Of a stretch of DNA of 64,000 bases, positions 358 through 60,374 are shown piece by piece (within the stretch, counting starts at the first letter, position 1; each line of letters opens with the position of its first letter). The translations under genes and the position numbers were made by a program. The stretch comes from an uncultured Candidatus Saccharibacteria bacterium (GTDB taxonomy: Bacteria > Patescibacteriota > CPR2_A > CAYFQT01), in NCBI GenBank assembly GCA_964345445.1, contig CAYFQT010000024.1, positions 4,634 through 68,633 on the forward strand, read 5' to 3'. The notes below the pieces were generated by a model. It was not told the origin of the DNA. It worked only from the letters and a program-made list of their open reading frames with translations, and made no database searches.

Positions 358-490
358 CGGCTTCGCCACTACACAGATAGCCACAGATAAATTAATGATG
401 GACACGGATAACGGATAACGGGTCAAGTCAGTGATCAGTGGCTATCCGTAATCAATCAGTAAAAATCAGTGTTTTACTGGAGGTAAAAAT
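358..490 (+). repeat. Family-1 intergenic element (cacagat/cacggat/cagtgat word array), preceded by a post-stop hairpin and followed by a conserved pre-RBS leader
   Basis: tagcggcttcgccacta hairpin, then cacagatagccacagataaat...cagtgatcagtggctatccgtaatcaatcagtaaaaatcagtgttttactggaggtaaaaatATG. Confidence 0.8.
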
Positions 491-1174
491 ATGGGGCAAA
501 AAGTAAATCCAATAGGTTTAAGAATTGGTATCACAGATAGTTGGCGATCTAATTGGTTTGCTACCAAAGGATATACTAAATTCTTACATGAAGATATAAA
601 GCTACGTAATTTTATTCTTAAAAAATTATCTCGGCAAGGAGTAGCTTCTGTTTTAATTGAGAGATCAGCTAATAATATAATTGTTAATATTCATTCTTCT
701 AGACCTGGTGTGATTATTGGTAGAAAGGGTGAAGGTGTTGAAAAGTTAAGAGAACAACTGCAAAAGATAACTAAAACAAAAGTTCAGATTAATATTGAAG
801 AAGTTTCTGAACCAGAAAGCAATGCTTATTTGGTGGCTGAAAATATTGCTTCTCAGTTGGAAAAAAGAATTTCTTTTAGAAGGGCTTTAAAACAAACCAT
901 TGACCGAGCAATGAATACAAAAAGTTGCCAAGGAATAAAAATAACAGTTTGTGGAAGATTGGGGGGGATAGAAATGGCTAGATGTGAGACTTTAAATACT
1001 GGAAAGATGCCCTTGAATACTTTAAGATCCAATATTGATTATGCTTGTGTGCCTGCTTTTACAACTTATGGAGTAATTGGAGTAAAAGTTTGGATATATA
1101 AAGGTGAGATTTTTGAGAAGAAAGTTCAAAATGTTAAAAATGTTCAAGATGTTCAAAATTTTAGCAAGCGTTAG
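491..1174 (+). CDS. rpsC: 30S ribosomal protein S3
   Basis: N-terminus MGQKVNPIGLRIGI... is the S3 signature. RBS ggaggtaaaaat precedes the ATG. The C-terminal ~13 aa are encoded by the atgttcaa repeat array. Confidence 0.95.
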   Translation: MGQKVNPIGLRIGITDSWRSNWFATKGYTKFLHEDIKLRNFILKKLSRQGVASVLIERSANNIIVNIHSSRPGVIIGRKGEGVEKLREQLQKITKTKVQINIEEVSEPESNAYLVAENIASQLEKRISFRRALKQTIDRAMNTKSCQGIKITVCGRLGGIEMARCETLNTGKMPLNTLRSNIDYACVPAFTTYGVIGVKVWIYKGEIFEKKVQNVKNVQDVQNFSKR

Positions 1175-1243
1175 CGATAGAACAATTTGAACAAGGCCCA
1201 AGGGACCGATTGAACAATTAGAACATTTTCGGAGGAAATATTT
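1135..1243 (+). repeat. Family-4 element (atgttcaa / ttgaacat inverted word array), overlapping the rpsC 3' end
   Basis: aatgttaaaaatgttcaagatgttcaaaat ... atagaacaatttgaacaa ... ttgaacaattagaacatttt. Left and right arms are reverse complements. Confidence 0.75.
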
Positions 1244-1687
1244 ATGTTAATGCCTCGTAAGATAAAACATAGAAAACATCAAAGAGGAAGAATGTCGGGT
1301 AAATCTAGTCGAGGATCTTTAATTGCTTTTGGTCGTTTTGCTTTACTTTCTACTGGGCGTGCTTGGATATCTGCTCGTCAGATTGAAGCTGCTAGAAGAG
1401 CAATGACTCGTTATATAAAAAGAGGGGGAAAGATTTGGATTAGAGTTTTTCCTGACAAACCAGTAACCAAGAAAGGAGCAGAAACACCAATGGGAAGTGG
1501 AAAAGGATCTTTAGATCATTTTGTAGCTGTGGTAAAACCAGGAAAGATTTTGTTTGAAATGGATGGAGTCCCAGAGGATGTAGCTCGTGAAGCTATGAGA
1601 CTTGCTTCACATAAGTTATCTATTGGCACTAAATTTTTAGTTAAAGAAACTCCTGGTGAGGAGGAAACAAAAAATGAAGAAAATTAA
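1244..1687 (+). CDS. rplP: 50S ribosomal protein L16
   Basis: [17 protein letters not shown]...[25 protein letters not shown] is the L16 signature. RBS ggagg is present. Confidence 0.95.
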
Positions 1688-1922
1688 AGGCTTAAAAACG
1701 AAAAAAACAAGTGAATTAGTTTCTGAACTTAAAAAAACTCGTCAAAAATTAAGAGCTTTAAATTTTGATTTAGTGACTAAAAAGTTAAAAAATCATCAAG
1801 AAGTTACTTATACAAAAAGAAAGATTGCAATAATTTTGACAATTTTGTCAGAAAGAAGATTGGAAGAAATAGAAAAAATTGCAACCGCAGAGGTACAAAA
1901 AGAAGCAAAGAAGCAAAAGTAA
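1674..1922 (+). CDS. rpmC: 50S ribosomal protein L29
   Basis: [33 protein letters not shown]... is L29-like. ATG at 1674 is preferred over the track's GTG at 1656 (same frame) because RBS gaggagg lies upstream. Overlaps the rplP 3' end. Confidence 0.85.
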
Positions 1923-1986
1923 TTTAGCGACTTTGCTACAACAAATCAGTAACAATCTGTGTTTATCTAATGAATAGGAGATAATT
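1923..1986 (+). repeat. Short family-1-like leader (aatcagtaacaatctgtgttta)
   Basis: Same word set as the pre-RBS part of the family-1 spacers. Confidence 0.5.
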
Positions 1987-2235
1987 ATGGATAAAAAGAA
2001 AAAAAGGACTAAAATTGGTATGGTTGTAAGTGATAAAATGGATAAGACAGTTATTGTAGAAGTTGAAAGATTAAAAGAACACCCATTATATAAAAAAAAA
2101 TATAAAATAAATAGAAGATACAAAGCTCATGATTCTAAAAATGAGTATAAAAAAGGCGATAAAGTTGAAATAGAAGAGACAAGGCCTTTATCTCGTGAAA
2201 AGAGATGGAAAGTAGTGAGTAAAATATCCCAATAG
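1987..2235 (+). CDS. rpsQ: 30S ribosomal protein S17
   Basis: [29 protein letters not shown] is the S17 OB-fold signature. RBS ggagataatt is present. Confidence 0.9.
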
Positions 2236-2403
2236 CGGCTTTGCCACTACCATAAATAGCCACAGACCTACCTGTGCTCTACCAAAGGCGGACAGGCGGC
2301 AGGGCAGGTAAGTCACTGATGGCTACGGATCACAGATGGATCAGTGATTAATGGCTATCTGTAATCAATCCTTGTAAATCTGTGTTTTAGCGGAGATAAA
2401 AAT
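2236..2403 (+). repeat. Family-1 intergenic element with embedded GC-rich cctacctg...caggtaag palindrome
   Basis: tagcggctttgccacta hairpin; ...atagccacagacc; GC palindrome 2267-2322; gtcactgatggctacggatcacagatggatcagtgattaatggctatctgtaatcaatccttgtaaatctgtgttttagcggagataaaaatATG. Confidence 0.8.
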
Positions 2404-2772
2404 ATGATTCAATCTCAAACAAGATTAAAAGTAGCTGATAATACTGGAGCAAAAGAAATTATGTGTATCACAGTTTTAGGCGGCTCCCGAAAAAAATATG
2501 CAAAAATTGGAGATCTTATTACTGCTTCAGTTAAATCAGCTATACCCAATGGGGTGGTTAAAAAGAAAGATAAAGTTTTAGCAGTAATTGTGCGTACTAA
2601 TAAAGAATTTAGGAGGAAAGATGGAACAGTTGTACGTTTTGATGATAATGCAGCAGTAATTATAGGAAAAGATAGGGTTCCAAAAGGAACACGTATTTTT
2701 GGTCCTGTAGCACGAGAATTAAGAGAAAAAAGATTTTCTAAAATAATTTCCCAAGCGCCAGAGGTGCTTTAG
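2404..2772 (+). CDS. rplN: 50S ribosomal protein L14
   Basis: [22 protein letters not shown]... is the L14 signature. Confidence 0.95.
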
Positions 2773-2896
2773 CGGCTTCGCCGCTAAACACAGATTAGCT
2801 ACGGATAAATCAATGATGGCCACAGATTAAGGATTATGAATTACTAATTACTAATAACGAACCAGATCAGTAATCCGTGTTTAGAAGGAGGTGAAT
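2773..2896 (+). repeat. Family-1 intergenic element
   Basis: tagcggcttcgccgcta hairpin, then cacagattagctacggataaatcaatgatggccacagat... Positions 2805-2883 are identical to 3221-3299. Confidence 0.8.
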
Positions 2897-3205
2897 ATGA
2901 AAATAAAAAAGGATGATACAGTTTTAGTTATATGTGGGAAAGATCGAGGTAAGACAGGAAAAGTAGAAAAAGTTTTGCCTCAAAAAAATAAGATTGTAGT
3001 TTCAGGGGTTAATAAACTAAAAAAACATGTAAAACCTTCTTCTAAAAATCCACAAGGAGGAATTATTCAATTTGATGCTCCACTTGACATATCTAATGTA
3101 ATGTTATTATGTTCTCGATGTGATAGAACCACAAGAGTTGGATACAGAATATTAAAAGATGGAACAAAACAAAGGATTTGTAAAAAGTGTAAGGAAGCAG
3201 TATAA
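2897..3205 (+). CDS. rplX: 50S ribosomal protein L24 (KOW domain) with C-terminal CxxC...CxxC ribbon
   Basis: KIKKDDTVLVICGKDRGKTGKV is the KOW motif. ATG at 2897 follows RBS aaggagg. The C-terminus carries CSRC...CKKC. Confidence 0.85.
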   Translation: MKIKKDDTVLVICGKDRGKTGKVEKVLPQKNKIVVSGVNKLKKHVKPSSKNPQGGIIQFDAPLDISNVMLLCSRCDRTTRVGYRILKDGTKQRICKKCKEAV

Positions 3206-3386
3206 ACAGGATAGTTGCTGATAAATCAATGATGGCCACAGATTAAGGATTATGAATTACTAATTACTAATAACGAACCAGATCAGTAATCCGTGTTTAT
3301 TCGACTGAAAACTCGGGGTCCCAAAAATTGTAATGGAACAAAGCGGAATGTTAAGCAATTTTTGGGGTGAAAAAAAGAGGATAAAT
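3206..3386 (+). repeat. Family-1 intergenic element (contains exact 79-bp copy of 2805-2883)
   Basis: ataaatcaatgatggccacagattaaggattatgaattactaattactaataacgaaccagatcagtaatccgtgttta is identical in both spacers. Confidence 0.8.
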
Positions 3387-3932
3387 ATGGCTCGTCTCAA
3401 AGATAAATATGAGAAGGAAATTATTCCAAAATTAAAAGAAGAATTTGGTTATAAAAATGATTTACAAGCTCCCCGTATTTTAAAAGTGGTTATAAATAGT
3501 GGGGTAGGGAGATTTTCTAGAGATACAAAATATTTAGACCAAGTATCTCATGTTCTTGCACAAATTACTGGACAGAAACCTATTTCTAGGAATGCTAGAA
3601 AATCTATTGCCGGATTTAAAGTTAAGAAAGGAATGACTGTAGGCTATATGGTCACTTTAAGAGGGGTGCGGATGTATGAGTTTTTAGATAAATTAATTAA
3701 TATAGTTTTACCAAGAATTAGAGATTTTAAAGGGTTAGATCCAAAAGCTTTTGATGGGAAAGGAAATTATAATATTGGAATTACAGAACATACAGTTTTT
3801 CCAGAAATAAGCTACGAGGATGTTCAGCAGTCTTTTGGATTAGAAATTAGTATTATAACTACGGTTTCTGATAATAAAAAAGCAAAAAAACTCTTGGAAT
3901 TTTTAGGATTTCCCTTTAAAAAAGTATCATAA
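3387..3932 (+). CDS. rplE: 50S ribosomal protein L5
   Basis: [24 protein letters not shown]...VVINSGVG is the L5 signature. Start taken at the in-frame ATG 3387; the track start at 3333 lies inside the repeat spacer. Confidence 0.9.
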
Positions 3933-3952
3933 CGACCAAAGGGAGTAAAAAT

Positions 3953-4138
3953 ATGACTAATAAAGCACAGATTATAAAATCTCAAAAAAAACCTAAATAT
4001 AAAACTCGAAAAATAAATCGATGTAAAATATGTGGAAGGAAAAGAGCTTATATGCGTAAATTTGGAATGTGCCGGATTTGTTTTAGAGAGTTAGCTTCTC
4101 GTGGTGAGATACCAGGGATTACTAAATCAAGTTGGTAG
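3953..4138 (+). CDS. rpsZ: 30S ribosomal protein S14, type Z (zinc-binding)
   Basis: 61 aa with [25 protein letters not shown], the CxxC-x12-CxxC motif. Confidence 0.9.
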
Positions 4139-4419
4139 GTGCTGAAGGCACCTCCACAAATAACTCACAATTACAAAATATTACTCACAAATAGAAACTT
4201 GTTTGTCGGTTACGGTTACGAAACCCGCCCAGAAAGCTTTCTAGGCCCGTATCGTCTCTTGGTTACGAAGTTTGTCAATATAATGCTTGGATAACGTAGC
4301 CCTAACCGCCTCACGATACCCACTTCGTAACCCTAATCATAACTGATTAACTTTATAAAATAGTAATAGTGAGTCAAATGCTTGTTAAAGTGAGTAATAG
4401 TGATTTACCGGAGGTAAAT
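4139..4419 (+). repeat. Compound nested quasi-palindrome: family-3 arms (ttactcacaa / tagtgagtaa) flanking a family-6 core (ggttacg / cgtaacc)
   Basis: Left: aactcacaattacaaaatattactcacaaat. Core: cggttacggttacgaaacc...cgtaaccc. Right: aatagtaatagtgagtcaaatgcttgttaaagtgagtaatagtgatttaccggaggtaaatATG. Confidence 0.75.
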
Positions 4420-4857
4420 ATGACTGATCCAATAGCGGATATGTTAGTTAGAATAAGAAATAGTCAAATGGTTAAAAAAGAGTTTGTTATTGTTCCTTTT
4501 TCTAAAATTAAATGGGAAATAGGTAAAATTTTAGAAAAGGAAGGATTTATAAAAGATTGCAGTCGAATTAAGGCCAGTGATTTATATCAGGATAAGTCTT
4601 TTCGTCTCCGATTTTATAAAGGGAAAAATTTTCCTCAAATAAAAATTGAATTAAAATATTCTGATCAAAAACCAGCTGTATCTGGTCTTAGGCGAGTGAG
4701 TAAACCGGGCCGAAGAATTTATGTTAAAAAGGAAAAGTTACCTTATGTTTTAAGAGGATTAGGAATTGCTATTATTTCTACTTCTTTTGGTATAATGACT
4801 GACAAGGAGGCTAGGAAGAAGAAATTAGGAGGAGAAGTACTTTGTGAGATTTGGTAG
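4420..4857 (+). CDS. rpsH: 30S ribosomal protein S8
   Basis: [15 protein letters not shown]... is the S8 signature. ATG 4420 follows RBS ggaggtaaat. Confidence 0.9.
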
Positions 4858-4977
4858 ACACAATAATAAGTGTCAAGAGTGTCAAAAGTATCACAGGTGT
4901 CAAAGATATATTGCAATAATAACTGATACTTTTGATACATCTGATACCTCTGACACCTGCGACTGGAAGGAGCAAAT
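4858..4977 (+). repeat. Family-2 element: 10-bp-periodic gtgtca/gtatca words mirrored by tgatac/tgacac words around a tatata centre
   Basis: aagtgtcaagagtgtcaaaagtatcacaggtgtcaaagatatattgc...ctgatacttttgatacatctgatacctctgacacctgcgac. Confidence 0.8.
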
Positions 4978-5529
4978 ATGTCTAGAATAGGGAAAATGCC
5001 TATTAAAATCCCTGAAGGAATAAAAGTAAATATTCAAGGCAAAAAAATTACCACAAGTGGTCCTTGTGGAGAATTAAGCTATATTCTACCTGTTTGTATT
5101 GATGTGTTAGAGAAAGATAATAATTTAATTTTAAAAAGGAAAAATGAACAAAAAATTACTCGGAGCCTGCATGGCACTTCAAGAACTTTAATTTCTAATA
5201 TGATTTACGGAGTAACCAAAGGTTTTACAAAAGAATTAGAAATTTCTGGGATAGGTTTTAAAGCATCTAAAAAAGGTGATAATTTAGTATTACAAGTAGG
5301 ATTTTCTCATCCAGTAGAAATTAAACCTCCACAAGGAATAAGTTTTCAAGTTAACAAAAATATAATTACTGTTTTTGGAATTGATAAACAGAAAGTAGGT
5401 ACTATTGCTGCTAAAATCAGATCAGTTCGAAGGCCTGAACCTTATAAAGGCAAGGGAATTAAATATGTTGGGGAGGAAATAAAGAGAAAAGTAGGTAAGG
5501 CTGCTAAAGTAGGTACAGAAGGTCCATAG
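4978..5529 (+). CDS. rplF: 50S ribosomal protein L6
   Basis: MSRIGKMPIKIPEGIKV... is the L6 signature. RBS ggagcaaat is present. Confidence 0.9.
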   Translation: MSRIGKMPIKIPEGIKVNIQGKKITTSGPCGELSYILPVCIDVLEKDNNLILKRKNEQKITRSLHGTSRTLISNMIYGVTKGFTKELEISGIGFKASKKGDNLVLQVGFSHPVEIKPPQGISFQVNKNIITVFGIDKQKVGTIAAKIRSVRRPEPYKGKGIKYVGEEIKRKVGKAAKVGTEGP

Positions 5530-5610
5530 AAGTTAAAATTAGATTCCCTAAAAGAATGTTGCAGAGTGGGGGTGTAAAAAATTTCTGGGATGGTAAGAAG
5601 GGGTATAAGA

Positions 5611-5997
5611 ATGAGTAAATTAGATAAACAGAAATCTAGATTAAGACGAAAAAAAAGAATAAGATCAAAAGTTTTTGGTACAAAAAGAATACCTCGATTT
5701 TGTGTTACAATAAGTTTAAAACATATTTATGTGCAATTAATTAATGATGAGGAAGGAAAAACTATTTTAGCTGCTTGTGATAGCGAAATTGGAAAAAATA
5801 AAAAGTCTAAGAAAGATTTTAAAAAAAATAGTTTAAGTAGAAAAGTGGGATTGTCCTTTGAGGTAGGAAGGTTAGCAGCAAAGAAGGCAAAAGAGAAGAA
5901 AATAAAAAAGGTTGTTTTTGATCGCTCAGGATATAAATATCACGGTCGGGTAAAAGCAGTGGCTGAAGGGGCAAGAAAAGAAGGGTTGGAATTTTGA
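5611..5997 (+). CDS. rplR: 50S ribosomal protein L18
   Basis: MSKLDKQKSRLRRKKRIRSKVFGT...PRFCVTISLKHIYVQLI is the L18 signature. ATG 5611 is in frame with the track start 5590. Confidence 0.85.
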   Translation: MSKLDKQKSRLRRKKRIRSKVFGTKRIPRFCVTISLKHIYVQLINDEEGKTILAACDSEIGKNKKSKKDFKKNSLSRKVGLSFEVGRLAAKKAKEKKIKKVVFDRSGYKYHGRVKAVAEGARKEGLEF

Positions 5998-6149
5998 AGT
6001 CACTTTGTAACTTCCACTATCACTTACAGTTACAGACTATTACTCACAAATGAAATATATAATAGTGAGTTAAATGTATGTAATAGTGAGTAACTTGTGT
6101 TTGTCCGAAGGACAAAATAGTAAGTAATAGTGATTTGCCGGGGGCAAAT
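5998..6149 (+). repeat. Family-3 element (cactatcacttaca...ttactcacaaat // atagtgagttaa...tagtgagtaa)
   Basis: Nearly identical word order to 7785-7901 and 16030-16121. Ends in tagtgatttgccgggggcaaatATG. Confidence 0.75.
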
Positions 6150-6530
6150 ATGAATCGGAAAATTTTACTTTTAATTATATTTTTACTAGCAATTGCAGGA
6201 CTTCTTTTTACAGAACAGGGGAAAAGTATTATTGACAGGTTTCGTAGTTATCATCAGTTAACCATCCATCTTAAAGATTCTCAAAAAGAAAATGTTTCTT
6301 CAGCTGAAGTAGGGGTATTCAAAACTTCTGAAAGTGTTAATGAAACCATTGAATCGAAAGAAACAGATGAAAATGGAAAAGTAACATTTACTCTTCCAGA
6401 AGGAAGATATTATATTTGGGTAGCTAATCCTTTAGAACCTGCAAAGAGAGAAACTATTTTTTTTCCTGGGGACGGAGAAGGAGTTTCCTTGTTATATAAT
6501 AGAGAAATAGAGGTTGTTACTAGTCCTTAA
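6150..6530 (+). CDS. Hypothetical small signal-anchored/secreted protein with a beta-rich, Cna-B/carboxypeptidase-regulatory-like domain, inserted between rplR and rpsE
   Basis: MNRKILLLIIFLLAIAGLLF is a hydrophobic N-terminus. Motifs ENGKVTFTLPEGRYYIWV suggest a beta sandwich. There is no ribosomal-protein homology, and L30 would normally follow L18/S5 here. Confidence 0.5.
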   Translation: MNRKILLLIIFLLAIAGLLFTEQGKSIIDRFRSYHQLTIHLKDSQKENVSSAEVGVFKTSESVNETIESKETDENGKVTFTLPEGRYYIWVANPLEPAKRETIFFPGDGEGVSLLYNREIEVVTSP

Positions 6531-6565
6531 AATTAGCTTCTTAGGTTAAAAAAACAGGAGTTAAA

Positions 6566-7129
6566 ATGATTAAGAAGAAAAATGAGATAAAAGAAAAAAA
6601 TAATAAATCTTCTAGCAATTTAAAGAAAAAAGGAAATACAAAGACACCCGGGGTTGCAGAAGAGAAACCAGAGGAAATTAAAGAAAAAATAGTTCAGATT
6701 GATCGAGTGGCTCGAGTAGTTAAAGGTGGTAGAAGATTTAGATTTAGAGCAATTGTTGTGGTAGGAAATGAAAAAGGTAGAGTAGGAGTAGGAGTGGGGA
6801 AAGGAACAGAGGTATCTCTAGCAGTACAAAAAGCGAAGGCCAAAGCACAAAAAAATATGATTTCTGTTCCACTACAAGGCTTTACTATTCCTCATGAAAT
6901 TCAGGTTTCTTTTGGAAGTGCAAAAGTTCTCTTAAAACCAGCTTCACCTGGTACTGGGGTGATTGCTGGAGGAGCAGTAAGAGCAGTTGTAGAATTAGCT
7001 GGTGTAAAAGATATTCTAAGTAAAATTTTGGGATCAGCTAATAAAGTTAATAATGTCCAAGCAGCCTTTTTGGCTCTAAAAGAAATAAAGTCGCCTATTA
7101 ATACGGATAAGCCACGGATAAATCACTAA
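6566..7129 (+). CDS. rpsE: 30S ribosomal protein S5 with Lys-rich N-terminal extension
   Basis: [36 protein letters not shown] is the S5 signature. The last codons (NTDKPRINH) are read from cacggat/cacagat repeat words. Confidence 0.9.
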
Positions 7130-7235
7130 TAGCCACAGATTACCAATAACAAATAACTAATAATGAATCAAATCAGTGATCAGTGGCTATCTATAATAAA
7201 TCAGTGAAAATCTGTGTTTTACCGGAGGTAAAAAT
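7100..7235 (+). repeat. Family-1 element starting inside the rpsE 3' end
   Basis: aatacggataagccacggataaatcactaatagccacagat ... aaatcagtgatcagtggctatctataataaatcagtgaaaatctgtgttttaccggaggtaaaaatATG. Confidence 0.8.
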
Positions 7236-7784
7236 ATGCAGTTACATAAACTTAAATCAAGAAAATTAAAGAGTGTAAAAAGAGTAGGTAGAGGAATTTC
7301 AGCTGGGAGAGGGAAAACCTGTGGCCGAGGCACTAAAGGACAAAAATCCCGATCTGGTGCAAAAGCAAAACCAGGTTTTGAAGGTGGACAATCCTCCCTT
7401 ATTAAACGCTTGCCCAAAAAAAGAGGATTTTATAATATATTTTCTACACACTGGCAGATTGTTAATGTAGGTAAATTAAATGAGTTAAAAAATGGAACAA
7501 AAGTTAATATTAAATTATTATATAATAAAGGAATTATTAGAGATTTAAAAGATAAATTAAAAATTTTAGGTGATGGGGTATTGGATAAAAAGTTAGAAAT
7601 TTATGCCCATTCATTTTCCAAACAAGCTAGGAAGAAAATAGAACAAGCTGGAGGAAAGGCAGTTATAGTAAAGGTGTCACAAGTGTCAGGTGTATCACAG
7701 GTGTCAAAAGAGAAAAAAGCTGCAAACCTGAAAAAAACCACCCCGCAGAAACAGAACAAGCAAGAACGTAAAAAACCTAAGTAG
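7236..7784 (+). CDS. rplO: 50S ribosomal protein L15 with extended Lys-rich C-terminus
   Basis: LKSVKRVGRGISAGRGKTCGRGTKGQKSRSG is the L15 signature. It directly follows rpsE with no rpmD (L30) between. The C-terminal VKVSQVSGVSQVSKEKK is encoded by gtgtca repeat words. Confidence 0.9.
   Translation: MQLHKLKSRKLKSVKRVGRGISAGRGKTCGRGTKGQKSRSGAKAKPGFEGGQSSLIKRLPKKRGFYNIFSTHWQIVNVGKLNELKNGTKVNIKLLYNKGIIRDLKDKLKILGDGVLDKKLEIYAHSFSKQARKKIEQAGGKAVIVKVSQVSGVSQVSKEKKAANLKKTTPQKQNKQERKKPK
7676..7715 (+). repeat. Family-2 words inside the rplO coding sequence (encodes VKVSQVSGVSQVSK)
   Basis: aaggtgtcacaagtgtcaggtgtatcacaggtgtcaaaag. Confidence 0.6.
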
Positions 7785-7901
7785 CGGCTTCGCCGCTAGC
7801 ACTATCACTTACAATTACAGACTATTACTCACAAATGAAATATATAATAGTGAGTTAAACGTAGGTGATAGTGAGTAATAGTGATTTGCCAGAGGCAAAT
7901 A
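7785..7901 (+). repeat. Family-3 element with post-stop hairpin tagcggcttcgccgcta
   Basis: gcactatcacttacaattacagactattactcacaaatgaaatatataatagtgagttaaacgtaggtgatagtgagtaatagtgatttgccagaggcaaataATG. Confidence 0.8.
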
Positions 7902-9191
7902 ATGCTGGAGAAAATTAAACAAGTTTTTACCTACAAAGATTTAAGAAAGAAAATTTTATACACCATAGCTTTGTTAGTTATTTTTCGCATTGCTGCTTCT
8001 ATCCCTATTCCCTGGGTAAATTTAGAAGCATTAAGGGAATTCTTTACAAAAAGTAGAGTTTTAGGAATTTTAAATATTCTCTCTGGTGGAGCTATGAGTC
8101 GATTTTCTATTGTAATGATGGGTGTAGCTCCTTATATTAATGCTGTAATTATTATGGAACTTTTGACAATGATTATTCCGCGTCTTGAAGCTTTATCCAG
8201 AGAAGGAGAACAAGGACATAACAAAATTAATCGATATACTAGATATTTGACTGTTCCTTTAGCTGCTTTAGAATCTTTTGGGATGATTAAACTTTTACAG
8301 ACTCAAGGACAACAGGCAGGTCAGCAGATTTTACCACAGATTACTTTTTTTCAATGGATAGCTATGGTTATAACTATAACTTGTGGGACTATATTTGTAA
8401 TGTGGTTAGGGGAATTAATTTCTGAAAGCGGTATAGGCAATGGAATATCTTTAATTATTTTTGTGGGAATTATAGCTGGTGGACCGCAAGCTTTACAACA
8501 TGTTTTTGCTTCTTTAATGAATAAAGAACAAATTTTACAATTATTTATTTTTCTTTTTATAGCTTTGGTGGTAATTTTTGGAGTAGTTTTAGTAGACCGA
8601 GGACAACGGAAAATTCCTGTATCTTATGCTAAGCAGATTAGAGGAATGAAAATGTATGGCGGAGTAGCTTCTCATATTCCTTTAAAAGTAAATCAAGGCG
8701 GAGTGATCCCTATAATTTTTGCCATTTCTTTAATGCTCTTCCCAGGAATGGTTGCCAATTTTTTCACAACAGCCAAGACTGTTTGGATCGCTTCTGTTGC
8801 TTCATTTGTAGCTAATCTTTTTAAAAATCCTATTTTTTATGGAAGTTTATATTTTCTTTTAGTAGTTGGATTTACTTATTTTTATACAGCAATTGTTTTT
8901 AATCCTGAACGAATAGCAGAAAATCTTCAAAAACAAGGAGGATTTATACCTGGAATTCGTCCTGGTCCTTCTACTATAGAATATCTGCATAAGTTATTAA
9001 ATCGAATTAATTTAGCAGGGGGGGTATTTTTAGGAGCTATTGCTGTATTGCCCCTTTGTTTCCAAAGTTTAATTCCTGGTTTAGATTTAGCTATTGGAGG
9101 AACAGGACTTTTAATTGTAGTTAGTGTAATATTAGAAACCTCAGAACAAATAAAAGCTCAGGTTTTAATGCGGAGCTATGAGAGCTACTAA
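7902..9191 (+). CDS. secY: Preprotein translocase subunit SecY
   Basis: 10-TM profile with SecY motifs GIGNGISLIIF and GGVIPIIFA. ATG 7902 is preferred over the track's GTG 7881, which lies in the repeat spacer. Confidence 0.9.
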   Translation: MLEKIKQVFTYKDLRKKILYTIALLVIFRIAASIPIPWVNLEALREFFTKSRVLGILNILSGGAMSRFSIVMMGVAPYINAVIIMELLTMIIPRLEALSREGEQGHNKINRYTRYLTVPLAALESFGMIKLLQTQGQQAGQQILPQITFFQWIAMVITITCGTIFVMWLGELISESGIGNGISLIIFVGIIAGGPQALQHVFASLMNKEQILQLFIFLFIALVVIFGVVLVDRGQRKIPVSYAKQIRGMKMYGGVASHIPLKVNQGGVIPIIFAISLMLFPGMVANFFTTAKTVWIASVASFVANLFKNPIFYGSLYFLLVVGFTYFYTAIVFNPERIAENLQKQGGFIPGIRPGPSTIEYLHKLLNRINLAGGVFLGAIAVLPLCFQSLIPGLDLAIGGTGLLIVVSVILETSEQIKAQVLMRSYESY

Positions 9192-9374
9192 ATATAAAAT
9201 TCTAAATTCAAAATTATAAACACTAAACAATATCGAATGTTTTAAATCCAAATGTTCAAAAATAAATCTGATTTACAGAATAGTTTAAGACATTAAAAAA
9301 TTTAAATTTTGAATTTGTTTAGATATTAGAAATTAGATATTAGGATTTATTTCTTAAATTAATAAGAGATTTCT
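9192..9374 (+). repeat. Family-5 element (ttctaaat / aatcctaaat words mirrored by atttagaa / attaggatt)
   Basis: aaattctaaattcaaaatt...ttaaatccaaatgttc ... gaatttgtttagatattagaaattagatattaggatttatttc. Confidence 0.7.
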
Positions 9375-10037
9375 ATGAAGTCTTTAAACATTATTCTTTT
9401 TGGTCCTCCTGGAACAGGTAAAGGAACTCAGGCACAAAAGCTAGCACATAGACTTGGTTTGGAATATATTGCTACTGGGGACTTTGTTCGTGATTTTGCC
9501 AAAAAAAATGATAAACTAGGAAAAGAGGTAAAAAAATATTTGGATTCTGGAGAACTTGTTCCTAATGAAATAATTAATGATTATATAAGGAAGAAATTAA
9601 ATAAATTACCCAAATCTTCCGGAGTAATTTTTGATGGTTTTCCTAGGAATAGAAAACAAGCCGAAGATTTTAAGAAAATATTACAGGATACAAAAAGAAA
9701 TAATTTAAAGGTTATTTATATAAAAAGTAGTGAAAAAGCCTTAGTGGAAAGATTAAGTAATAGAAAGATTTGTAAAGAATGTAAGAAAATTTTTCCTAAT
9801 CCTCCGGCAGATATGAAGAAATGCCCTCAGTGTAGGGGCAAGTTATTTATTCGAAATGATGATAGACCTATGGTTGTTAGACAGAGACTTCATATATATA
9901 ATATTCGGACAAAACCATTAGTTGATTATTATAAAGAAGAAGGCAAATTAGTAGAGATTAATGGAGATCAGCCAATTGAAGAAGTTTTTGAGGAAATTTT
10001 AAGTAAAATTGGAAAAGATAATTGTTCAAAATGTTGA
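9375..10037 (+). CDS. adk: Adenylate kinase (zinc-lid type)
   Basis: IILFGPPGTGKGTQA is the P-loop. The LID carries CKECKK...CPQCRG, four Cys. Confidence 0.9.
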   Translation: MKSLNIILFGPPGTGKGTQAQKLAHRLGLEYIATGDFVRDFAKKNDKLGKEVKKYLDSGELVPNEIINDYIRKKLNKLPKSSGVIFDGFPRNRKQAEDFKKILQDTKRNNLKVIYIKSSEKALVERLSNRKICKECKKIFPNPPADMKKCPQCRGKLFIRNDDRPMVVRQRLHIYNIRTKPLVDYYKEEGKLVEINGDQPIEEVFEEILSKIGKDNCSKC

Positions 10038-10952: not shown

Positions 10953-11140
10953 AGATAAAGTGTCACAAGTATCAAAGGTGTCAAAAGTAGCCACTTTTAG
11001 AAAATAATTAGAAAAGTCCTAAATCCGAAACAAATTATAATGTCCCAAATTCTAAATTATAAACTGTTTGAAACATTGGAACATTAGAATTTAGATATTG
11101 TTTAGAAATTATATATTAGAAATTAGGATTTTAAAAGCCT
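10953..11140 (+). repeat. Short family-2 block (gtgtcacaagtatcaaaggtgtcaaaag) followed by a family-5 element
   Basis: ...aagtcctaaatccgaaacaaattataatgtcccaaattctaaatt ... ttagaatttagatattgtttagaaattatatattagaaattaggatttt. Confidence 0.7.
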
Positions 11141-11259
11141 TGTAATCTACTGACTAATAGTAATAAAAATTAATTAAAATTGCCCCGTAATCCACTTACG
11201 TTACTACGGGGCCTCAGCCTTTGCAAGGAATAATTATAGCAAAGACTTCGGGAGGTTTT

Positions 11260-12829: not shown

Positions 12830-12943
12830 ATGAAAGTTAGAGCTTCAGTTAAAAAAATATGTTCCAAATGTAAAATAGTCCGCCGCAAGGGGAAAGTGCG
12901 GGTTATTTGTGAAAATCCCAAGCATAAACAACGTCAGGGGTAA
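12830..12943 (+). CDS. rpmJ: 50S ribosomal protein L36 (not in the supplied ORF track)
   Basis: Manual translation gives [37 protein letters not shown], 37 aa with the canonical L36 Cys/His zinc motif. RBS aaggagg lies 6 nt upstream. It sits between infA and rpsM as expected. Confidence 0.85.
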
Positions 12944-13050
12944 GATGTCAGAAGTATCACAGGTGTCATTGGTGTCAAAGGATATATATGATAACCTCTG
13001 ATACTTTTGATACATTTGATACCTCTGACACCTGCGACGAAGGAGCAAAT
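12944..13050 (+). repeat. Family-2 element
   Basis: gatgtcagaagtatcacaggtgtcattggtgtcaaaggatatatatgataacctctgatacttttgatacatttgatacctctgacacctgcgac. Near-identical right arm to 4930-4970. Confidence 0.8.
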
Positions 13051-25166: not shown

Positions 25167-25979
25167 CTATAATTGTGGTACTAAAGATTGTTGGTTTTGT
25201 AGGTTATATTCTGGGATTTGGATAATTTGCCAAGAGGAAAATGGCCAGGGTCTGATCCAAACTTTGCCGGCAATGTTGCTTTTAGAAACATTCCATCCTT
25301 CCCGAGAATCTCTAGATTGATTGGGTTCTCGGTTATCTCCTAAAACAAAATATTCATCGTCTTCCAAAGTTGTATATACATCACCTAAAGTTTCCACCTC
25401 TGGTTTAATATATGTTTCTTTTAATTTTACTCCCTTAGAATTTTCATCGTTATAAATGATAACATCTCCACCTTTTATTTCTACTTTTTCTCCTGGCAGT
25501 CCAATAATTCGTTTAATGAAATTCTTTTCAGGACTTTTAGGATATTTAAATACTATTACCTCACCTCGTCTAGGAGCTCTCAAGCGATAGGAAATTTTGT
25601 CAATTAAAAGATAATCACTTTCTGAAAAACTAGGCTCCATAGATGAACCTATAACTATAAATGGCTGAATTAGAAAAAAACGAATTAAAAAAGCAATTAT
25701 GAGTATTATATCTACAATTATTTTAGTACTATACCAACTAGAGAGAATTATAGGTTCTTCTGAGGTTGTTATAGAATAATTTCTAATAAAGTAATAAATA
25801 CTTAAAATTATTCCCACAGAAGCTAAAATAATAAAATTTATCAGTATTATATTTTCTACTGGTCCTAAAATATTTAAATTACGATTAAAATTATAAAAAA
25901 ATAAACCAGCAATTAAATTAATTAAAGCAATAGAAATGGATTTGATTCTCAGGTTCATTATTGCTCCCTTCGGTCGCAT
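25167..25979 (-). CDS. lepB: Signal peptidase I
   Basis: S26 motifs IVIGSSMEPSF, RGEVIVFKYP, IKRIIGLPGEKVEI and VLGDNREPNQSRDSREGW. Confidence 0.85.
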   Translation of the reverse strand: MRPKGAIMNLRIKSISIALINLIAGLFFYNFNRNLNILGPVENIILINFIILASVGIILSIYYFIRNYSITTSEEPIILSSWYSTKIIVDIILIIAFLIRFFLIQPFIVIGSSMEPSFSESDYLLIDKISYRLRAPRRGEVIVFKYPKSPEKNFIKRIIGLPGEKVEIKGGDVIIYNDENSKGVKLKETYIKPEVETLGDVYTTLEDDEYFVLGDNREPNQSRDSREGWNVSKSNIAGKVWIRPWPFSSWQIIQIPEYNLQNQQSLVPQL

Positions 25980-26060
25980 GTGTCAGACGTGTCAGATATA
26001 TTAAGTGTTTCAAAGGCTGTTATATTATATCCTTTGATACCCATAACACTTGTGATGTTT
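25980..26060 (+). repeat. Family-2 element upstream of minus-strand lepB
   Basis: tgtgtcagacgtgtcagatatattaagtgtttcaaaggctg...cctttgatacccataacacttgtgatgtttatgat. Confidence 0.65.
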
Positions 26061-26217
26061 ATGATAATTTAATTATACTGTAGAGATTATAGCATAAAAA
26101 TGCTTATCTTTCAATTTTTTTCTATTGTTTTTACTTTTTTTATGTTATAATATTCTAAGCCTAACTAATATGATGGGTCTTAATTTTTATATTTTAGTTT
26201 TTTAAAGGAATATATAA

Positions 26218-29265: not shown

Positions 29266-29345
29266 ATATAAGTGTCGAAAGTATCAAAGGTGCCACAGGT
29301 GTCAGAAACATCAAAAGATATATAGTAATGTCTGATATTTTAATT
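29266..29345 (+). repeat. Family-2 element
   Basis: taagtgtcgaaagtatcaaaggtgccacaggtgtcagaaacatcaaaagatatatagtaatgtctgatatttt. Confidence 0.65.
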
Positions 29346-36284: not shown

Positions 36285-36387
36285 AAAATAAGGTGTCAAA
36301 TGTGTCAAAAGTATCAGAGGTTATTATAATATCTTATGATACTTGTGATACCTTTGATACTTATGATACCTGCAAGGTAGGAGCATT
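36285..36387 (+). repeat. Family-2 element
   Basis: aaggtgtcaaatgtgtcaaaagtatcagaggttattataatatcttatgatacttgtgatacctttgatacttatgatacctgcaaggtaggagcattATG. Confidence 0.8.
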
Positions 36388-38440: not shown

Positions 38441-38542
38441 TAAGAGTATAGGTGTCATAAGTATCATTGGTGTCAGAGGTGTCAGTTATATAATATGATA
38501 CTTTTGATACATCTGACACATTTGACACCTTTAGAGTTTTGT
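38441..38542 (+). repeat. Family-2 element
   Basis: ataggtgtcataagtatcattggtgtcagaggtgtcagttatataatatgatacttttgatacatctgacacatttgacaccttt. Confidence 0.8.
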
Positions 38543-43418: not shown

Positions 43419-43570
43419 AAAGTATCAAAGGTGTCAGATGTATCAATAAAAAAATGTCAAGCGTGTCAAATATGTCAGAAGTGTCAAATGTTATTATATA
43501 TTCTTTGACACCATTGATACCTGTGATACTTTTGATACCTATTATTAATGCTTATGATACTTGTTATTTT
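43419..43570 (+). repeat. Family-2 element (longest instance)
   Basis: aaagtatcaaaggtgtcagatgtatcaataaaaaaatgtcaagcgtgtcaaatatgtcagaagtgtcaaatgttattatatattctttgacaccattgatacctgtgatacttttgatacctattattaatgcttatgatacttg. Confidence 0.8.
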
Positions 43571-48524: not shown

Positions 48525-48807
48525 CGGATTAATATCAAAAGAATTTTTTTTAAATATTTATAATTTAAGAGTCGAGAATCTGAAATACTTGACTCTATTT
48601 TTCATACACGAAAGAGCACGAAAATTTGCATAAATATTCACTAACACAAAAAGTTACAAACACGAAAATGTTTGTTTCACAAAAGGATTTTTTTATAGAC
48701 AAAATTAAGTATGAATGAATTGCACGAGAAGTTACTAAGATTATAGAATATTTTTAGTATTAATTCCTTTATGTTTCGTGTCATTTAGTGTCAAGGAGGG
48801 TAAAAAA

Positions 48808-49275
48808 ATGATACAGAGAAAAATATTTTTAACTAAAGAAGGTTTAGAAAAAATAAAAAAAGAATTGGATGAACTTATCAATAAAAAACGTCCAGAAGTA
48901 ATTAAGAGAATTAAAGAAGCCAAGGCCTATGGAGATCTTTCAGAAAATTCTGAATATGAAGATGCTAAAAATGAACAGTCATTTATTGAAGGAAAGATTT
49001 CTGAACTTCAAAATATGATTAAAAATGCTCAAATAATTGATAAAAAAGATAAAAAAAGCAATATTATATCTTTAGGTTCTACAATTATTGCATCTTTAGA
49101 TGGAAAAGATAATGAATACACAATCGTTGGTTCTGCAGAAGCTGATCCTTCAAAAGGAAAGATTTCTAATGAATCTCCTATTGGTGAAGCGCTTTTGGGT
49201 AAAAAAGCAGGGGATGAGGTAGAAGTAGAGGTTCCTGCTGGTAAAATTAAATTTAAAATCAAAAACATAAAATGA
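48808..49275 (+). CDS. greA: Transcription elongation factor GreA
   Basis: KIFLTKEGLEKIKKELDELIN...RIKEAKAYGDLSENSEYEDAKNEQSFIEGKISEL is the GreA coiled-coil signature. ATG 48808 follows RBS aaggaggg. Confidence 0.85.
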   Translation: MIQRKIFLTKEGLEKIKKELDELINKKRPEVIKRIKEAKAYGDLSENSEYEDAKNEQSFIEGKISELQNMIKNAQIIDKKDKKSNIISLGSTIIASLDGKDNEYTIVGSAEADPSKGKISNESPIGEALLGKKAGDEVEVEVPAGKIKFKIKNIK

Positions 49276-60362: not shown

Positions 60363-60374
60363 ATGGAGGTGAAC

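What the first reader, a model, noticed from the sequence alone, without database searches (positions are those of the whole stretch)
4858..4977. Family-2 elements have a strict ~10-bp word period and G-U-tolerant mirror symmetry
Family-2 instances are built from 9-10-nt units such as aggtgtcaaa, agtatcacag, gatgtatcaa. After a tatata centre they are followed by units such as ctgatacttt, tgatacatct, tgacacctg. The instances are at 4858, 10953, 12944, 25980, 29266, 36285, 38441 and 43419, with intragenic words at 7676. The period matches one DNA helical turn. The left and right halves pair along their whole length only if gtgtca:tgatac G-U wobbles are allowed. Two instances share a right arm that is almost identical: 4930-4970 and 13005-13045 both read ctgatacttttgatacat(c/t)tgatacctctgacacctgcgac, just before the RBS of rplF and rpsM respectively. 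This could be a protein-binding array, because of the helical phasing. It could equally be a long regulatory RNA hairpin that sequesters the RBS.
Basis: seen in the sequence. Interest (0 to 1): 0.65.

Follow-up and report, generated by a model that had tools for sequence, protein, structure and literature searches.

The report
Dispersed 9-bp-word hairpin repeats in CPR
The flagged sequence is one copy of a repeat family scattered between genes of a small candidate-phyla-radiation bacterium: it is built from opposed arrays of a 9-base word, folds into a hairpin but does not hide the ribosome-binding site, and behaves like a REP/MITE-type genomic repeat rather than a dedicated ribosomal-protein regulator.

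Summary
The elements are real and far beyond chance. GTGTCA occurs 30 times against 9.5 expected, GTATCA 51 against 21, and all the excess lies in clusters.

Three details of the finding need correcting.
- The period is exactly 9 bp, not about 10, so there is no helical phasing.
- Three "instances" (7676, 10953, 29266) are one-armed arrays.
- The 25980 copy faces the minus-strand gene lepB.

The host is a Patescibacteria (CPR) genome in which most intergenic gaps hold hairpins built from short repeated words; Family-2 is one of several such families.

The unit is nARGTRTCA. Six positions are at least 87% conserved and three are free or R. The arms mirror each other word by word only: the variable positions show no complementarity between arms.

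Complete copies fold strongly (z -3 to -7) but leave the Shine-Dalgarno sequence as accessible as shuffled controls do, so RBS sequestration is not supported. The G-U excess is real but does not follow the sense strand.

A sister lineage has decayed copies at the ribosomal-operon sites, nothing recognisable at three others, and no intact cluster in 41 kb. A closer relative carries a different family in the same slot. The rpsM copy's right half matches the rplF copy (95%) rather than its own ortholog (59%).

Best reading: a REP/MITE-like, copy-and-decay repeat with REP-like RNA side effects. A factor that recognises the 9-mer is not excluded.

The parts
4866..4977 (+). Complete Family-2 copy in the rpsH-rplF spacer. 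Left arm: 4 units (hexamers at 4870, 4879, 4888, 4897). AT-rich centre: 4903-4922. Right arm: 4 units (4924, 4933, 4942, 4951). Then tail ACCTGCGAC (4955-4963), SD GGAAGGAG, and ATG at 4978.
   Evidence: (MFE -35.8, z -4.2). Flanking genes identified.
7671..7706 (+). One-armed 4-unit array inside the rplO (L15) coding sequence, in frame. It encodes VSQVSGVSQVSK in a C-terminal extension beyond the L15 domain.
   Evidence: (the L15 model ends at residue 142 of 182). A decayed counterpart is present in relative L123.
10957..10983 (+). One-armed 3-unit array directly after the map stop codon, followed by a hairpin of a different word family.
   Evidence: (no fold, z -0.6). A decayed counterpart is present in L123.
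12942..13050 (+). Complete copy in the rpmJ-rpsM spacer, with 4 + 4 units. The right half, tail and SD (12998-13050) are 95% identical to 4923-4977.
   Evidence: (MFE -40.1, z -5.3).
25959..26068 (-). Partly decayed complete copy whose tail (ACATGCGAC), SD (GAAGGGAG) and ATG read on the minus strand. It is the leader of lepB, whose true start is near 25958.
   Evidence: It is more stable on the + strand (-20.3) than on its own sense strand (-14.3).
29269..29330 (+). Degenerate copy that is mostly left arm (units GTGTCG, GTATCA, GTGCCA, GTGTCA, ACATCA), located after ORF 28408-29265 and upstream of ogt.
   Evidence: (z -1.1).
36290..36387 (+). Complete copy in the tsf-pyrH spacer (3 + 4 units) with tail ACCTGCAAG and SD GGTAGGAG. 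It is absent from the same spacer in the sister lineage.
   Evidence: (MFE -41.4, z -7.1).
38449..38540 (+). Complete copy in the uppS-rseP spacer (4 + 4 units). The real rseP start is the ATG near 38541.
   Evidence: (z -5.5).
43419..43565 (+). Compound copy in the mreC-mreD spacer. The left side holds two arrays (43422-43445 and 43454-43486). The right arm spans 43506-43538, with an extra unit at 43555.
   Evidence: (z -4.9).
48778..48814 (.). Minimal fragment upstream of greA (GTGTCA, GTGTCA, TGATAC) with irregular spacing.

Best explanation
Family-2 is a lineage-specific family of dispersed non-coding repeats in a Patescibacteria (CPR) chromosome. It is REP/MITE-like in behaviour.

Anatomy. 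A complete copy is two opposed arrays of 3-5 copies of a 9-bp word (nARGTRTCA) around an AT-rich centre. This is usually followed by a short tail (ACCTGCGAC) and the Shine-Dalgarno sequence of the next gene.

Shown:
- The copies are homologous to each other beyond the word. They share the centre, the order of variable triplets, and the tail.
- They differ by whole 9-bp units.
- One copy has had its right half overwritten by another copy of the same genome.
- A sister lineage has only decayed copies or nothing recognisable at the same sites.
- A closer relative has a different word family in the same slot.
- The elements lie only where extra DNA is tolerated: intercistronic spacers, or in frame in a dispensable protein tail.

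Inferred:
- Spread is by copy-and-paste (transposition or gene conversion), units are gained and lost by slippage, and copies decay once the family stops being renewed.
- Because the spacers lie inside operons, the elements are co-transcribed. The RNA folds into a self-contained hairpin of about -30 to -40 kcal/mol that leaves the downstream ribosome-binding site free.
- The most likely physiological consequence is therefore REP-like: a structured spacer that impedes exonucleases or offers a double-strand processing site, and that separates neighbouring cistrons. It is not a regulatory switch.
For: - Word excess and clustering.
- Exact 9-nt tandem arrays.
- Hairpins with z -3 to -7.
- Context: the window is housekeeping operons of a CPR bacterium. 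Coding density is only 82%, and by my count 24 of the 40 gaps whose folds one search printed before it timed out have z <= -2. Several other word families with periods of 7-10 are present.
- Homology between copies, including copies in related metagenome contigs that share the centre and tail (L134, L165, L225, L236, L237).
- Intragenomic copying: the right halves of w_rplF and w_rpsM are 0.95 identical, against 0.59 for w_rpsM and its positional ortholog.
- Turnover across relatives. L123 keeps the same element in S8-L6 (87% identity) and decayed remnants at L36-S13 and Map-PEGA, plus a decayed copy in the L15-SecY spacer where the window carries a different word family. L249 has only 28 nt between tsf and pyrH and no family-2 sequence at uppS-rseP or mreC-mreD. 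There are 0 intact clusters in 41 kb of that lineage against 8 in 64 kb here. L125 (RplF 85%) has a different family in S8-L6. L128 (61%) has a 9-nt gap there.
- In-frame coding copies: L15 here; arrays encoding VS-x repeats run through what read as open coding frames in other CPR contigs (L121, L090, host proteins guessed by eye).
- The SD is not sequestered.
- No Rfam family, promoter or terminator signal at the elements.
Against: - No transposase or RAYT-type gene lies in the window, and the rest of the genome could not be examined.
- There is no clear target-site duplication. The one candidate empty site shows only an ambiguous AAGGT repeat.
- The arms are not nucleotide-level inverted copies, unlike classic MITE terminal repeats.
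- Six of nine unit positions are held while three drift. This needs either continual renewal from a master copy or recognition of the word by some factor.
- The S8-L6 copy has diverged less than silent sites (87% vs 65%, p = 8e-8). That copy at least may be constrained.
- The tail always points at the downstream start codon, in every copy that has one. Random insertion would not give that without selection.
- No expression data exist, so the RNA-level consequences are inference only.
Confidence: 0.45

Rival explanations
1. The 9-bp word is the binding unit of a sequence-specific factor. Examples are a small DNA-binding protein that polymerises on tandem short boxes, as ribbon-helix-helix repressors do on 7-8-bp repeats, or an RNA-binding protein. 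The elements would then be arrays of its sites (typically 4 = 36 bp per arm). They would have a genome-wide structural or regulatory role, and the hairpin potential would be a by-product of opposed arrays.
For: - Position-specific constraint within units: n-A-R-G-T-R-T-C-A, with non-uniformity p = 1e-26.
- Variable positions are not complementary between arms, so the symmetry is word-level.
- One-armed arrays exist on their own, here (7671, 10957) and in other CPR genomes, usually with 4 units.
- The S8-L6 copy evolves more slowly than silent sites.
Against: - The sites lie between cistrons inside operons, not at promoters, and there is no promoter signal.
- The 9.0-bp period puts successive sites on different faces of B-DNA.
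- The sister lineage lets most copies decay or lacks them, with the same genes intact.
- A different word family can occupy the same slot.
- Several unrelated word families share the architecture in one genome, which would need several factors.
- In-frame coding copies look like tolerated insertions.
- Orientation relative to genes is mixed for single arrays.
- No candidate protein was identified.
Confidence: 0.25
2. The hairpin is a functional intercistronic RNA device selected as such. By folding, it brings the upstream stop codon and the downstream SD/start side by side. This preserves coupled or re-initiating translation across a 100-nt spacer, or it defines mRNA processing and stability boundaries between cistrons.
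For: - Geometry: the first hexamer begins 0-13 nt after the stop codon in most oriented copies and the start codon follows the last one by 18-23 nt. L225 and L237b are looser, at 16-26 nt and 28-33 nt.
- In the broader CPR group, the stop is 1-3 or 17-19 nt before the array and the ATG is usually 7-12 nt (mostly 9-10) after it.
- Hairpins are strong and leave the SD free.
- The tail and SD always face the downstream gene.
- Most intergenic gaps in this genome are structured, whatever the word family.
Against: - There is no compensatory maintenance. Variable positions are not complementary, and the L123 ortholog has lost stability without compensation (-22.6 vs about -35 kcal/mol).
- The sister lineage does without the element at tsf-pyrH, where the gap is 28 nt.
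- The lepB copy is weaker on its sense strand.
- The broader CPR group is more stable on the antisense strand in 12 of 16 oriented cases.
- One-armed copies cannot fold.
Confidence: 0.15
3. One reading: a long regulatory hairpin that sequesters the ribosome-binding site of rplF and rpsM, acting as a ribosomal-protein leader or translational operator.
For: The two r-protein copies are nearly identical through the SD, and both lie just upstream of r-protein genes.
Against: - The SD and start codon lie outside the stem and are as accessible as with shuffled elements.
- The same family precedes pyrH, rseP, mreD and lepB.
- No Rfam leader family matches.
- The rpsM copy is badly decayed in the sister lineage.
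- A closer relative has a different element before rplF.
Confidence: 0.03
4. Purely local origin: each array arose in place by replication slippage of a short word and by inverted duplication, like a microsatellite. There would be no movement between sites and no function.
For: Copies differ by whole 9-nt units (alignment). Other families have other periods. Palindromes are prone to slippage and template switching (general knowledge).
Against: - The same word, centre and tail occur at many unrelated sites and in several genomes.
- Adjacent units differ at three positions but not at six, which slippage alone does not give.
- Paralogous copies resemble each other more than orthologous ones do.
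Confidence: 0.07

Closest known systems
REP / BIME / REPIN elements of Proteobacteria (repetitive extragenic palindromes; REPIN = two inverted REPs)
   Same: Both are high-copy, extragenic and hairpin-forming, lie between co-transcribed genes, occur as several families per genome, and are lineage-specific in abundance. Both are expected to fold in the mRNA without being terminators.
   Different: Here each arm is a tandem array of a 9-bp word rather than one 20-40-nt imperfect palindrome. The arms match word by word only. No RAYT gene was seen. A polar tail faces the downstream gene. The host is a CPR bacterium. My four full-text searches for intergenic hairpin repeats in this group, three of which named CPR or Patescibacteria, found no description.
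MITEs, e.g. Correia elements of Neisseria
   Same: Both are non-autonomous, dispersed and 80-150 bp long with inverted ends. Both are inserted next to genes and co-transcribed, and show presence/absence between relatives.
   Different: There are no nucleotide-level terminal inverted repeats and no demonstrated target-site duplication. The internal structure is periodic.
Short tandem intergenic word repeats: cyanobacterial STRR heptamers (named from my own knowledge) and the TAACTGA repeats of Beggiatoaceae, Cyanobacteria and Bacteroidetes (PMC4679880)
   Same: A short word is repeated head to tail 2-6 times, mostly intergenic and close to the downstream start codon. The phylogenetic distribution is patchy and the mechanism is unknown. 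Occasional in-ORF copies occur in a readable frame (PMC4679880).
   Different: Those repeats are 7-mers, almost always in direct orientation, and are predicted not to fold. PMC4679880 reports 169 direct sets and one inverted set. Family-2 is a 9-mer with three soft positions, normally in two opposed arrays that fold.
Rickettsia palindromic elements (RPE)
   Same: Both are palindromic repeats in a reduced genome that can sit in frame inside protein-coding genes and add a peptide segment. Here that is the L15 tail VSQVSGVSQVSK.
   Different: RPEs are non-periodic and mostly intragenic. Family-2 is periodic and mostly intercistronic. The comparison is from my own knowledge of RPEs and was not tested.
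TIGR arrays of TIGR-Tas systems (frequent in CPR; PMC12045711)
   Same: Both are short-period arrays in CPR genomes. One 4-unit arm is 36 nt long, the length of a tigRNA. Weak CUGA / UGAUAC resemblance to box D/C gives sub-threshold snoRNA hits.
   Different: TIGR units are 36 nt with two 8-9-nt variable spacers between edge and loop repeats. They form one long array next to a tas (Nop-domain) gene. Family-2 has only 3 soft nucleotides per 9, is dispersed, and has no such neighbour.

Membership tests
REP/REPIN | Short imperfect palindrome, extragenic, many copies per genome | tested here: met
   There are 8 clusters in 64 kb, all outside or at the very end of genes. Six form hairpins with z -3 to -7.
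REP/REPIN | Cognate RAYT (Y1 transposase-like) gene in the genome, typically flanked by REPs | not testable with these tools
   None was found among the window ORFs scanned. The rest of the genome is not available.
REP/REPIN | Arms that are nucleotide-level inverted copies of one REP sequence | tested here: not met
   Variable positions show no excess complementarity: 0.38 observed vs 0.53 shuffled in this lineage, and 0.45 vs 0.50 in other CPR copies.
MITE | Terminal inverted repeats plus target-site duplication | tested here: inconclusive
   The ends read AGGTGTCA...TGACACCT. The only candidate empty site (tsf-pyrH in L249) shows an AAGGT repeat, which could equally be a deletion scar.
MITE | Presence/absence polymorphism at orthologous sites | tested here: met
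   The tsf-pyrH spacer is 103 nt with the element here and 28 nt without it in L249. The S8-L6 slot holds a different family in L125 and nothing in L128.
STRR / TAACTGA-type tandem word repeats | Head-to-tail copies of one short word, intergenic, near start codons | tested here: met
   TRF reports period 9 with 3-5 copies per arm. The arrays end 18-23 nt before the start codon in most copies of this lineage.
STRR / TAACTGA-type tandem word repeats | Direct orientation only; no stable fold | tested here: not met
   Six of nine copies are opposed arrays that fold.
Intrinsic terminator | GC-rich stem followed by a U tract | tested here: not met
   No family-2 copy appears among the terminator-like sites in the scanned 1-20,000 (covers 4858, 7676, 10953, 12944), and none of the copies printed has a T run after the right arm.
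Ribosomal-protein leader / riboswitch-type cis-regulator | Conserved structure that occludes the SD or start codon, specific to one regulon, with a match to a curated RNA family | tested here: not met
   The SD is as open as in controls. The downstream genes are functionally unrelated. There is no Rfam hit at gathering score, and only noise at E <= 1.
TIGR array | 36-nt units with two 8-9-nt spacers; adjacent tas gene | tested here: not met
   The unit is 9 nt with 3 soft positions. The neighbours are housekeeping genes. The definition is taken from PMC12045711.
Helically phased protein-binding array | Site spacing of about 10.5 bp or a multiple | tested here: not met
   Spacing is 9.0 bp in every array.

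The most novel reading that the evidence does not exclude
The 9-mer nARGTRTCA is the recognition unit of an unknown factor that is widespread in the candidate phyla radiation. That factor could be a protein, or a guide-like nucleic acid, that either mobilises or coats arrays of about four units (36 nt). On this reading, the tandem-word palindromes that fill CPR intercistronic spacers, and are sometimes inserted in frame into essential genes, form a new class of mobile or architectural element with its own machinery. They would not be a mere REP look-alike.
Probability: 0.2. Interest if true: 0.8.

Novelty: new variant of a known kind. Interest (0 to 1): 0.5.

Why it matters
CPR/Patescibacteria genomes are usually described as small and tightly packed. 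This lineage spends about 18% of the window on non-coding DNA, most of it hairpin-forming arrays of short words, even between ribosomal-protein cistrons.

If these arrays are mobile, they are an undescribed class of repeat in a major and poorly studied part of the bacterial tree. They would also be a source of operon remodelling, leader swapping and in-frame peptide insertions in essential proteins.

If the word is recognised by a factor, it points to unknown machinery shared across CPR lineages.

Practically, the result warns against reading such hairpins upstream of ribosomal genes as dedicated regulators. It also flags them as a likely cause of spurious ORF calls (for example 4811-4975 on the - strand, and the extended starts of rseP, rpsM and lepB).

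Tried and rejected
It still revealed look-alike hairpins in Patescibacteria MAGs (L046, L093).
- (2) Sense-strand G-U selection was rejected as a diagnostic. The bias is significant here. But it follows the window's + strand even for the minus-strand lepB copy, and it is reversed in other CPR elements. Silent sites are T-rich on the sense strand for both gene orientations, so a mutational origin is possible.
- (3) Complementarity of the variable triplets was tested in the fixed register and in the best register. No excess was found.
- (4) Promoter and terminator function: no enrichment, and no terminator-like site at the family-2 copies in the scanned 1-20,000.
- (5) Rfam at gathering and at E <= 1 gave nothing meaningful.
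- (6) TIGR arrays were considered because the literature search returned them. They were rejected on unit anatomy and neighbourhood.
- (7) Phage origin: there were only 7 hits in 2.9 million viral contigs.
- (8) A generic exact-word detector for other tandem-word hairpins was too strict to be useful.
- (9) Orientation of single arrays relative to ORFs was mixed, and the crude ORF calls made it noisy.
- (10) No transposase or RAYT-type family turned up among the window ORFs scanned against NCBIfam or Pfam; a candidate DNA- or RNA-binding partner would not have been recognisable from these scans.
- (11) Four literature searches for CPR intergenic hairpin repeats or GTATCA arrays found no prior description. 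Absence from this library is not proof of novelty.
Full report
**What is there.** The 120-nt rpsH-rplF spacer (4858-4977) reads as follows:
- stop codon;
- four head-to-tail units containing GTGTCA/GTATCA, with hexamer starts at 4870, 4879, 4888 and 4897;
- an AT-rich centre;
- four units containing TGATAC/TGACAC (4924-4956);
- the tail ACCTGCGAC, then GGAAGGAG, then the ATG of rplF.

The same build recurs in five other spacers: rpmJ-rpsM (12942-13050), tsf-pyrH (36290-36387), uppS-rseP (38449-38540), mreC-mreD (43419-43565), and next to lepB (25959-26068). One-armed arrays lie at 7671-7706, 10957-10983 and 29269-29330, and there is a fragment at 48778.

GTGTCA occurs 30 times against 9.5 expected and GTATCA 51 times against 21.4. 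No shuffle reached either count, and the surplus is all in these clusters. Tandem Repeats Finder gives period 9 for every arm.

**Where it comes from.** The window is a run of housekeeping operons, almost all on the + strand, at about 32% GC. It covers the S10/spc/alpha ribosomal genes, secY, adk, map, infA, rpoA, ileS, rodA, tsf-pyrH-frr-uppS-rseP-proS, mreBCD-pbp2, secA and others.
- RplF has only five relatives above 65% identity in 5.8 billion proteins. The closest named one (61%) is annotated 'Patescibacteria group bacterium'.
- There is no L30 gene between S5 and L15. From my own knowledge, that is typical of the candidate phyla radiation.
- Coding density is only 82%.
- By my count, 24 of the 40 intergenic gaps whose folds one search printed before it timed out have z <= -2, and these include gaps inside the ribosomal operon. 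They are built from several different short words with periods of 7-10 nt.

Family-2 is thus one member of a genome-wide phenomenon, not a feature of two ribosomal genes.

**Anatomy of the unit.** I aligned 62 units in register, taking left arms as read and right arms reverse-complemented. The consensus is n-A-R-G-T-R-T-C-A.
- Position 1 is free, and positions 3 and 6 are mostly A/G.
- The other six positions are 87-98% conserved.
- Substitutions are far from evenly spread over the nine positions (chi-square p = 1e-26).

The two arms mirror each other only at the level of the word. The variable triplets of partner units are no more complementary than shuffled ones, in a fixed register or in the best of five registers. 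In the best-register test the values were 0.38 vs 0.53 +/- 0.04 for this lineage and 0.45 vs 0.50 for other CPR copies. 'Mirror symmetry' is therefore true of words and not of nucleotides.

**Folding.** Complete copies fold with z = -4.2, -5.3, -3.1, -7.1, -5.5 and -4.9 on the + strand. One-armed copies do not fold.
- In the MFE, 58-77% of nucleotides are paired and 9-19% of pairs are G-U. Forbidding G-U costs 8-16 kcal/mol.
- Left arms favour GTGTCA (26 G: 11 A at position 6). Right arms favour TGATAC (18: 6 the other way; Fisher p = 0.0007).

This asymmetry is not evidence for selection on the mRNA, for four reasons.
- Two copies are equally stable on both strands.
- The 25980 copy belongs by its tail, SD and ATG to lepB on the minus strand, yet it is more stable on the + strand (-20.3 vs -14.3).
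- In a broader set of CPR copies oriented by their flanking genes, the antisense strand is the more stable in 12 of 16.
- Four-fold sites are T-rich on the sense strand of both gene orientations, so a C-to-T bias could produce the pattern.

**Does it hide the ribosome-binding site?** No. The SD and start codon lie 3' of the stem. I folded from the upstream stop to +30 and compared each real element with 100 shuffled versions.

| Gene | P(SD unpaired), real element | P(SD unpaired), shuffled element |
|---|---|---|
| rplF | 0.54 | 0.41 |
| rpsM | 0.59 | 0.41 |
| pyrH | 0.38 | 0.40 |
| rseP | 0.40 | 0.37 |
| lepB | 0.47 | 0.41 |

There is no promoter enrichment and no terminator at the elements. 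There is no Rfam match at gathering score, and only eukaryotic miRNA/snoRNA noise at E <= 1.

**Evolution.** I recovered relatives by exact-protein look-ups.

*Sister lineage, L123 + L249.* Coding DNA is 81-86% identical and four-fold sites are 65% identical (124/190).
- It has the same element in S8-L6. The element is 87% identical, which is more than silent sites (p = 8e-8), but its stem has weakened without compensation.
- It has decayed remnants at L36-S13 (54% identical, with a large deletion) and at Map-PEGA, plus a decayed family-2-like copy in its L15-SecY spacer, where the window carries a different word family. It also has a decayed in-frame array in L15.
- It has only 28 nt between tsf and pyrH, and nothing recognisable at uppS-rseP and mreC-mreD.
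- It has no intact cluster in 41 kb, against eight in 64 kb here. Other word families dominate its spacers.

*Other relatives.*
- L125, the closest relative by RplF (85%), carries a different family in the S8-L6 slot.
- L126 (73%) carries yet another.
- L128 (61%) has a 9-nt gap with no element.

*Within the window.* The right half, tail and SD of the rpsM copy are 95% identical to the rplF copy. They are 85% identical to the L123 rplF copy, but only 59% identical to their own positional ortholog. This sequence has therefore been copied between loci.

*Shared features across contigs.* Copies in related metagenome contigs (L134 x2, L165, L225, L236, L237) share the centre (AAAGGATATAATAAC) and the tail. 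The tail always points at the adjacent start codon, on either strand.

Taken together, the slots persist while the residents are gained, overwritten, resized by whole units and lost.

**Wider distribution.** I scanned the metagenome collection for GTATCA-n3-GTRTCA, an 8-38-nt gap, then TGAYAC-n3-TGAYAC. My rough estimate for such a pattern by chance is one or two hits; this is an inference, because the collection size is not stated.
- Many hits are 36-45% GC contigs with four units per arm lying exactly between a stop codon and the next ATG. The stop is 1-3 or 17-19 nt before the array, and the ATG is mostly 9-10 nt after it.
- The genome scan found the same in MAGs labelled Patescibacteria and Levyibacteriota (L046, L093).
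- It also found one-armed four-unit arrays, some reading VS-x repeats through apparently open coding frames that I judged by eye to be TsaD-like (L121) and TopA-like (L090) proteins.
- Other hit groups look unrelated in context and were not pursued. These are a conserved GTATCAAAAG doublet element, high-GC GTATCAGGC elements, and long GATGTATCA arrays.
- Because the pattern fixed the word, these data do not show that GTATCA is special among words.
- Viral contigs gave only seven hits.

**Interpretation.** The best-supported account is a REP/MITE-like repeat family. Homologous copies are spread by copy-and-paste or conversion, resized by slippage, tolerated only in intercistronic spacers or dispensable protein tails, and decay when not renewed. 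Co-transcription is inferred from position inside operons.

The expected RNA-level effect is that of a self-contained hairpin spacer: an exonuclease barrier, a double-strand processing site, or a separator between cistrons. It is not expected to act as a switch.

Several things do not fit comfortably. There is no mobilising gene and no clear target duplication. The symmetry is word-level only. Six of nine positions are strongly constrained. The S8-L6 copy evolves slowly. The tail has a fixed polarity. These keep a second model alive (0.25): a factor that recognises the 9-mer.

A third model is a selected intercistronic hairpin that bridges stop and start or sets processing boundaries. It fits the geometry but not the lack of compensatory change, nor the ease with which relatives do without the element (0.15). 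The RBS-sequestration model is essentially refuted (0.03).

**Comparison with known systems.** In behaviour the elements resemble REP/REPIN and MITEs. In the use of a short tandem word close to start codons, they resemble cyanobacterial STRRs (named from my own knowledge) and the TAACTGA heptamers of Beggiatoaceae and others (PMC4679880). In their in-frame coding copies they resemble Rickettsia palindromic elements (my own knowledge).

They fail defining tests for each class: nucleotide-level inverted repeats, demonstrated target duplication, and direct-only non-folding arrays. They are not TIGR arrays (PMC12045711), terminators, or curated RNA leaders. Four full-text searches found no description of such repeats in CPR genomes. 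I therefore file this as a new variant of a known kind, of moderate interest. Its value lies mainly in what it says about CPR genome architecture and in the open question of what recognises the word.

Noticed in passing
window 2770-2788, 4136-4155, 7782-7798, 12654-12672, 13436-13452, 16472-16484: Short GC-rich hairpins with UUCG/UACG-type loops begin inside or right after the TAG stop codon of at least six ribosomal or translation genes (L14, S14, L15, IF1, S13, L17). An example is TAGCGGCTTCGCCGCTA. No T tract follows them on the + strand. They form a separate conserved 3'-end feature.
   Followed up: partly
window 325-495, 2119-2408, 2768-2895, 7125-7240, 12653-12774, 13433-13568, 16468-16646, 34450-34540: Another hairpin family is built from the words GATAGCCAC / GATCAGTG / CACAGAT. 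It is more abundant than Family-2. In relative L125 it occupies the S8-L6 slot that holds Family-2 here.
   Followed up: partly
window 4134-4373, 5993-6139, 7780-7885, 16025-16126; also 9187-9379, 10990-11225, 17700-18009, 42403-42616; also 1124-1229, 10020-10066: There are three further tandem-word hairpin families: TTACTCAC/CACTATCAC (period about 10), AAATCCT/TTAGGATT/TTAGAAA (period 7), and GTTCAAnnn (period 9). By my count, 24 of the 40 intergenic gaps whose folds were printed have z <= -2.
   Followed up: partly
window 7236-7784: L15 carries a 40-residue C-terminal extension that starts with the in-frame array (KVSQVSGVSQVSK) and continues lysine-rich. The sister lineage has a longer, diverged extension that starts KVSNV.
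   Followed up: yes
window 58000-58083: A c-di-GMP-II riboswitch (Rfam RF01786, 69.9 bits) lies about 570 nt upstream of an ORF with no Pfam match (58656-60035). That ORF itself contains 9/18-nt tandem repeats (59614-59810). A c-di-AMP synthase (CdaA) and YbbR are at 18005-20120.
   Followed up: no
window 6135-6530; L123 11046-11429: An ORF of about 130 aa with no Pfam or NCBIfam match sits between rplR and rpsE in the spc operon and is conserved in the sister lineage. L128/L129 have a 400-aa ORF in that position, and no L30 gene is present.
   Followed up: no
window 4811-4975 (-), 38495, 12988, 25979: The arrays create spurious or over-extended ORFs. There is a 54-aa ORF on the minus strand across the rplF copy. 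Mechanical starts for rseP, rpsM and lepB fall inside the elements. The likely true starts are about 38541, 13051 and 25958.
   Followed up: yes
window 36388-37134: Outside its own lineage (89%), PyrH finds its next-best matches at 71-72% identity in Nitrospirota, Actinomycetota and Desulfobacterota-type MAGs rather than in other CPR. This may reflect horizontal acquisition or unusual conservation.
   Followed up: no
L121 4271-4303; L090 (minus strand) about 1265; L009, L011, L029, L054, L084: In other Patescibacteria MAGs, single four-unit GTATCA arrays occur without a partner arm. Two of them read VS-x repeats through apparently open coding frames that I judged by eye to be TsaD-like and topoisomerase-I-like proteins. 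One MAG (SMAG_U6018) has at least five such arrays.
   Followed up: partly
L132, L138, L139, L155, L166, L172, L180, L195, L213, L220, L232, L244: Twelve metagenome contigs (40-46% GC) share a conserved element: GCAGTATCAAAAGTATCAAAAG, about 25 nt, then CTTTTGATACTTTTGATACTGCC. Its flanks are conserved and partly inverted (ttctgtaaataccctacc...). The context is unknown, and it is unrelated to the CPR spacers.
   Followed up: no
window 60603-61288: A 291-bp tandem repeat (2.4 copies, 70% match) lies inside the ORF 60363-62123, which carries a transglutaminase-elicitor-like domain.
   Followed up: no
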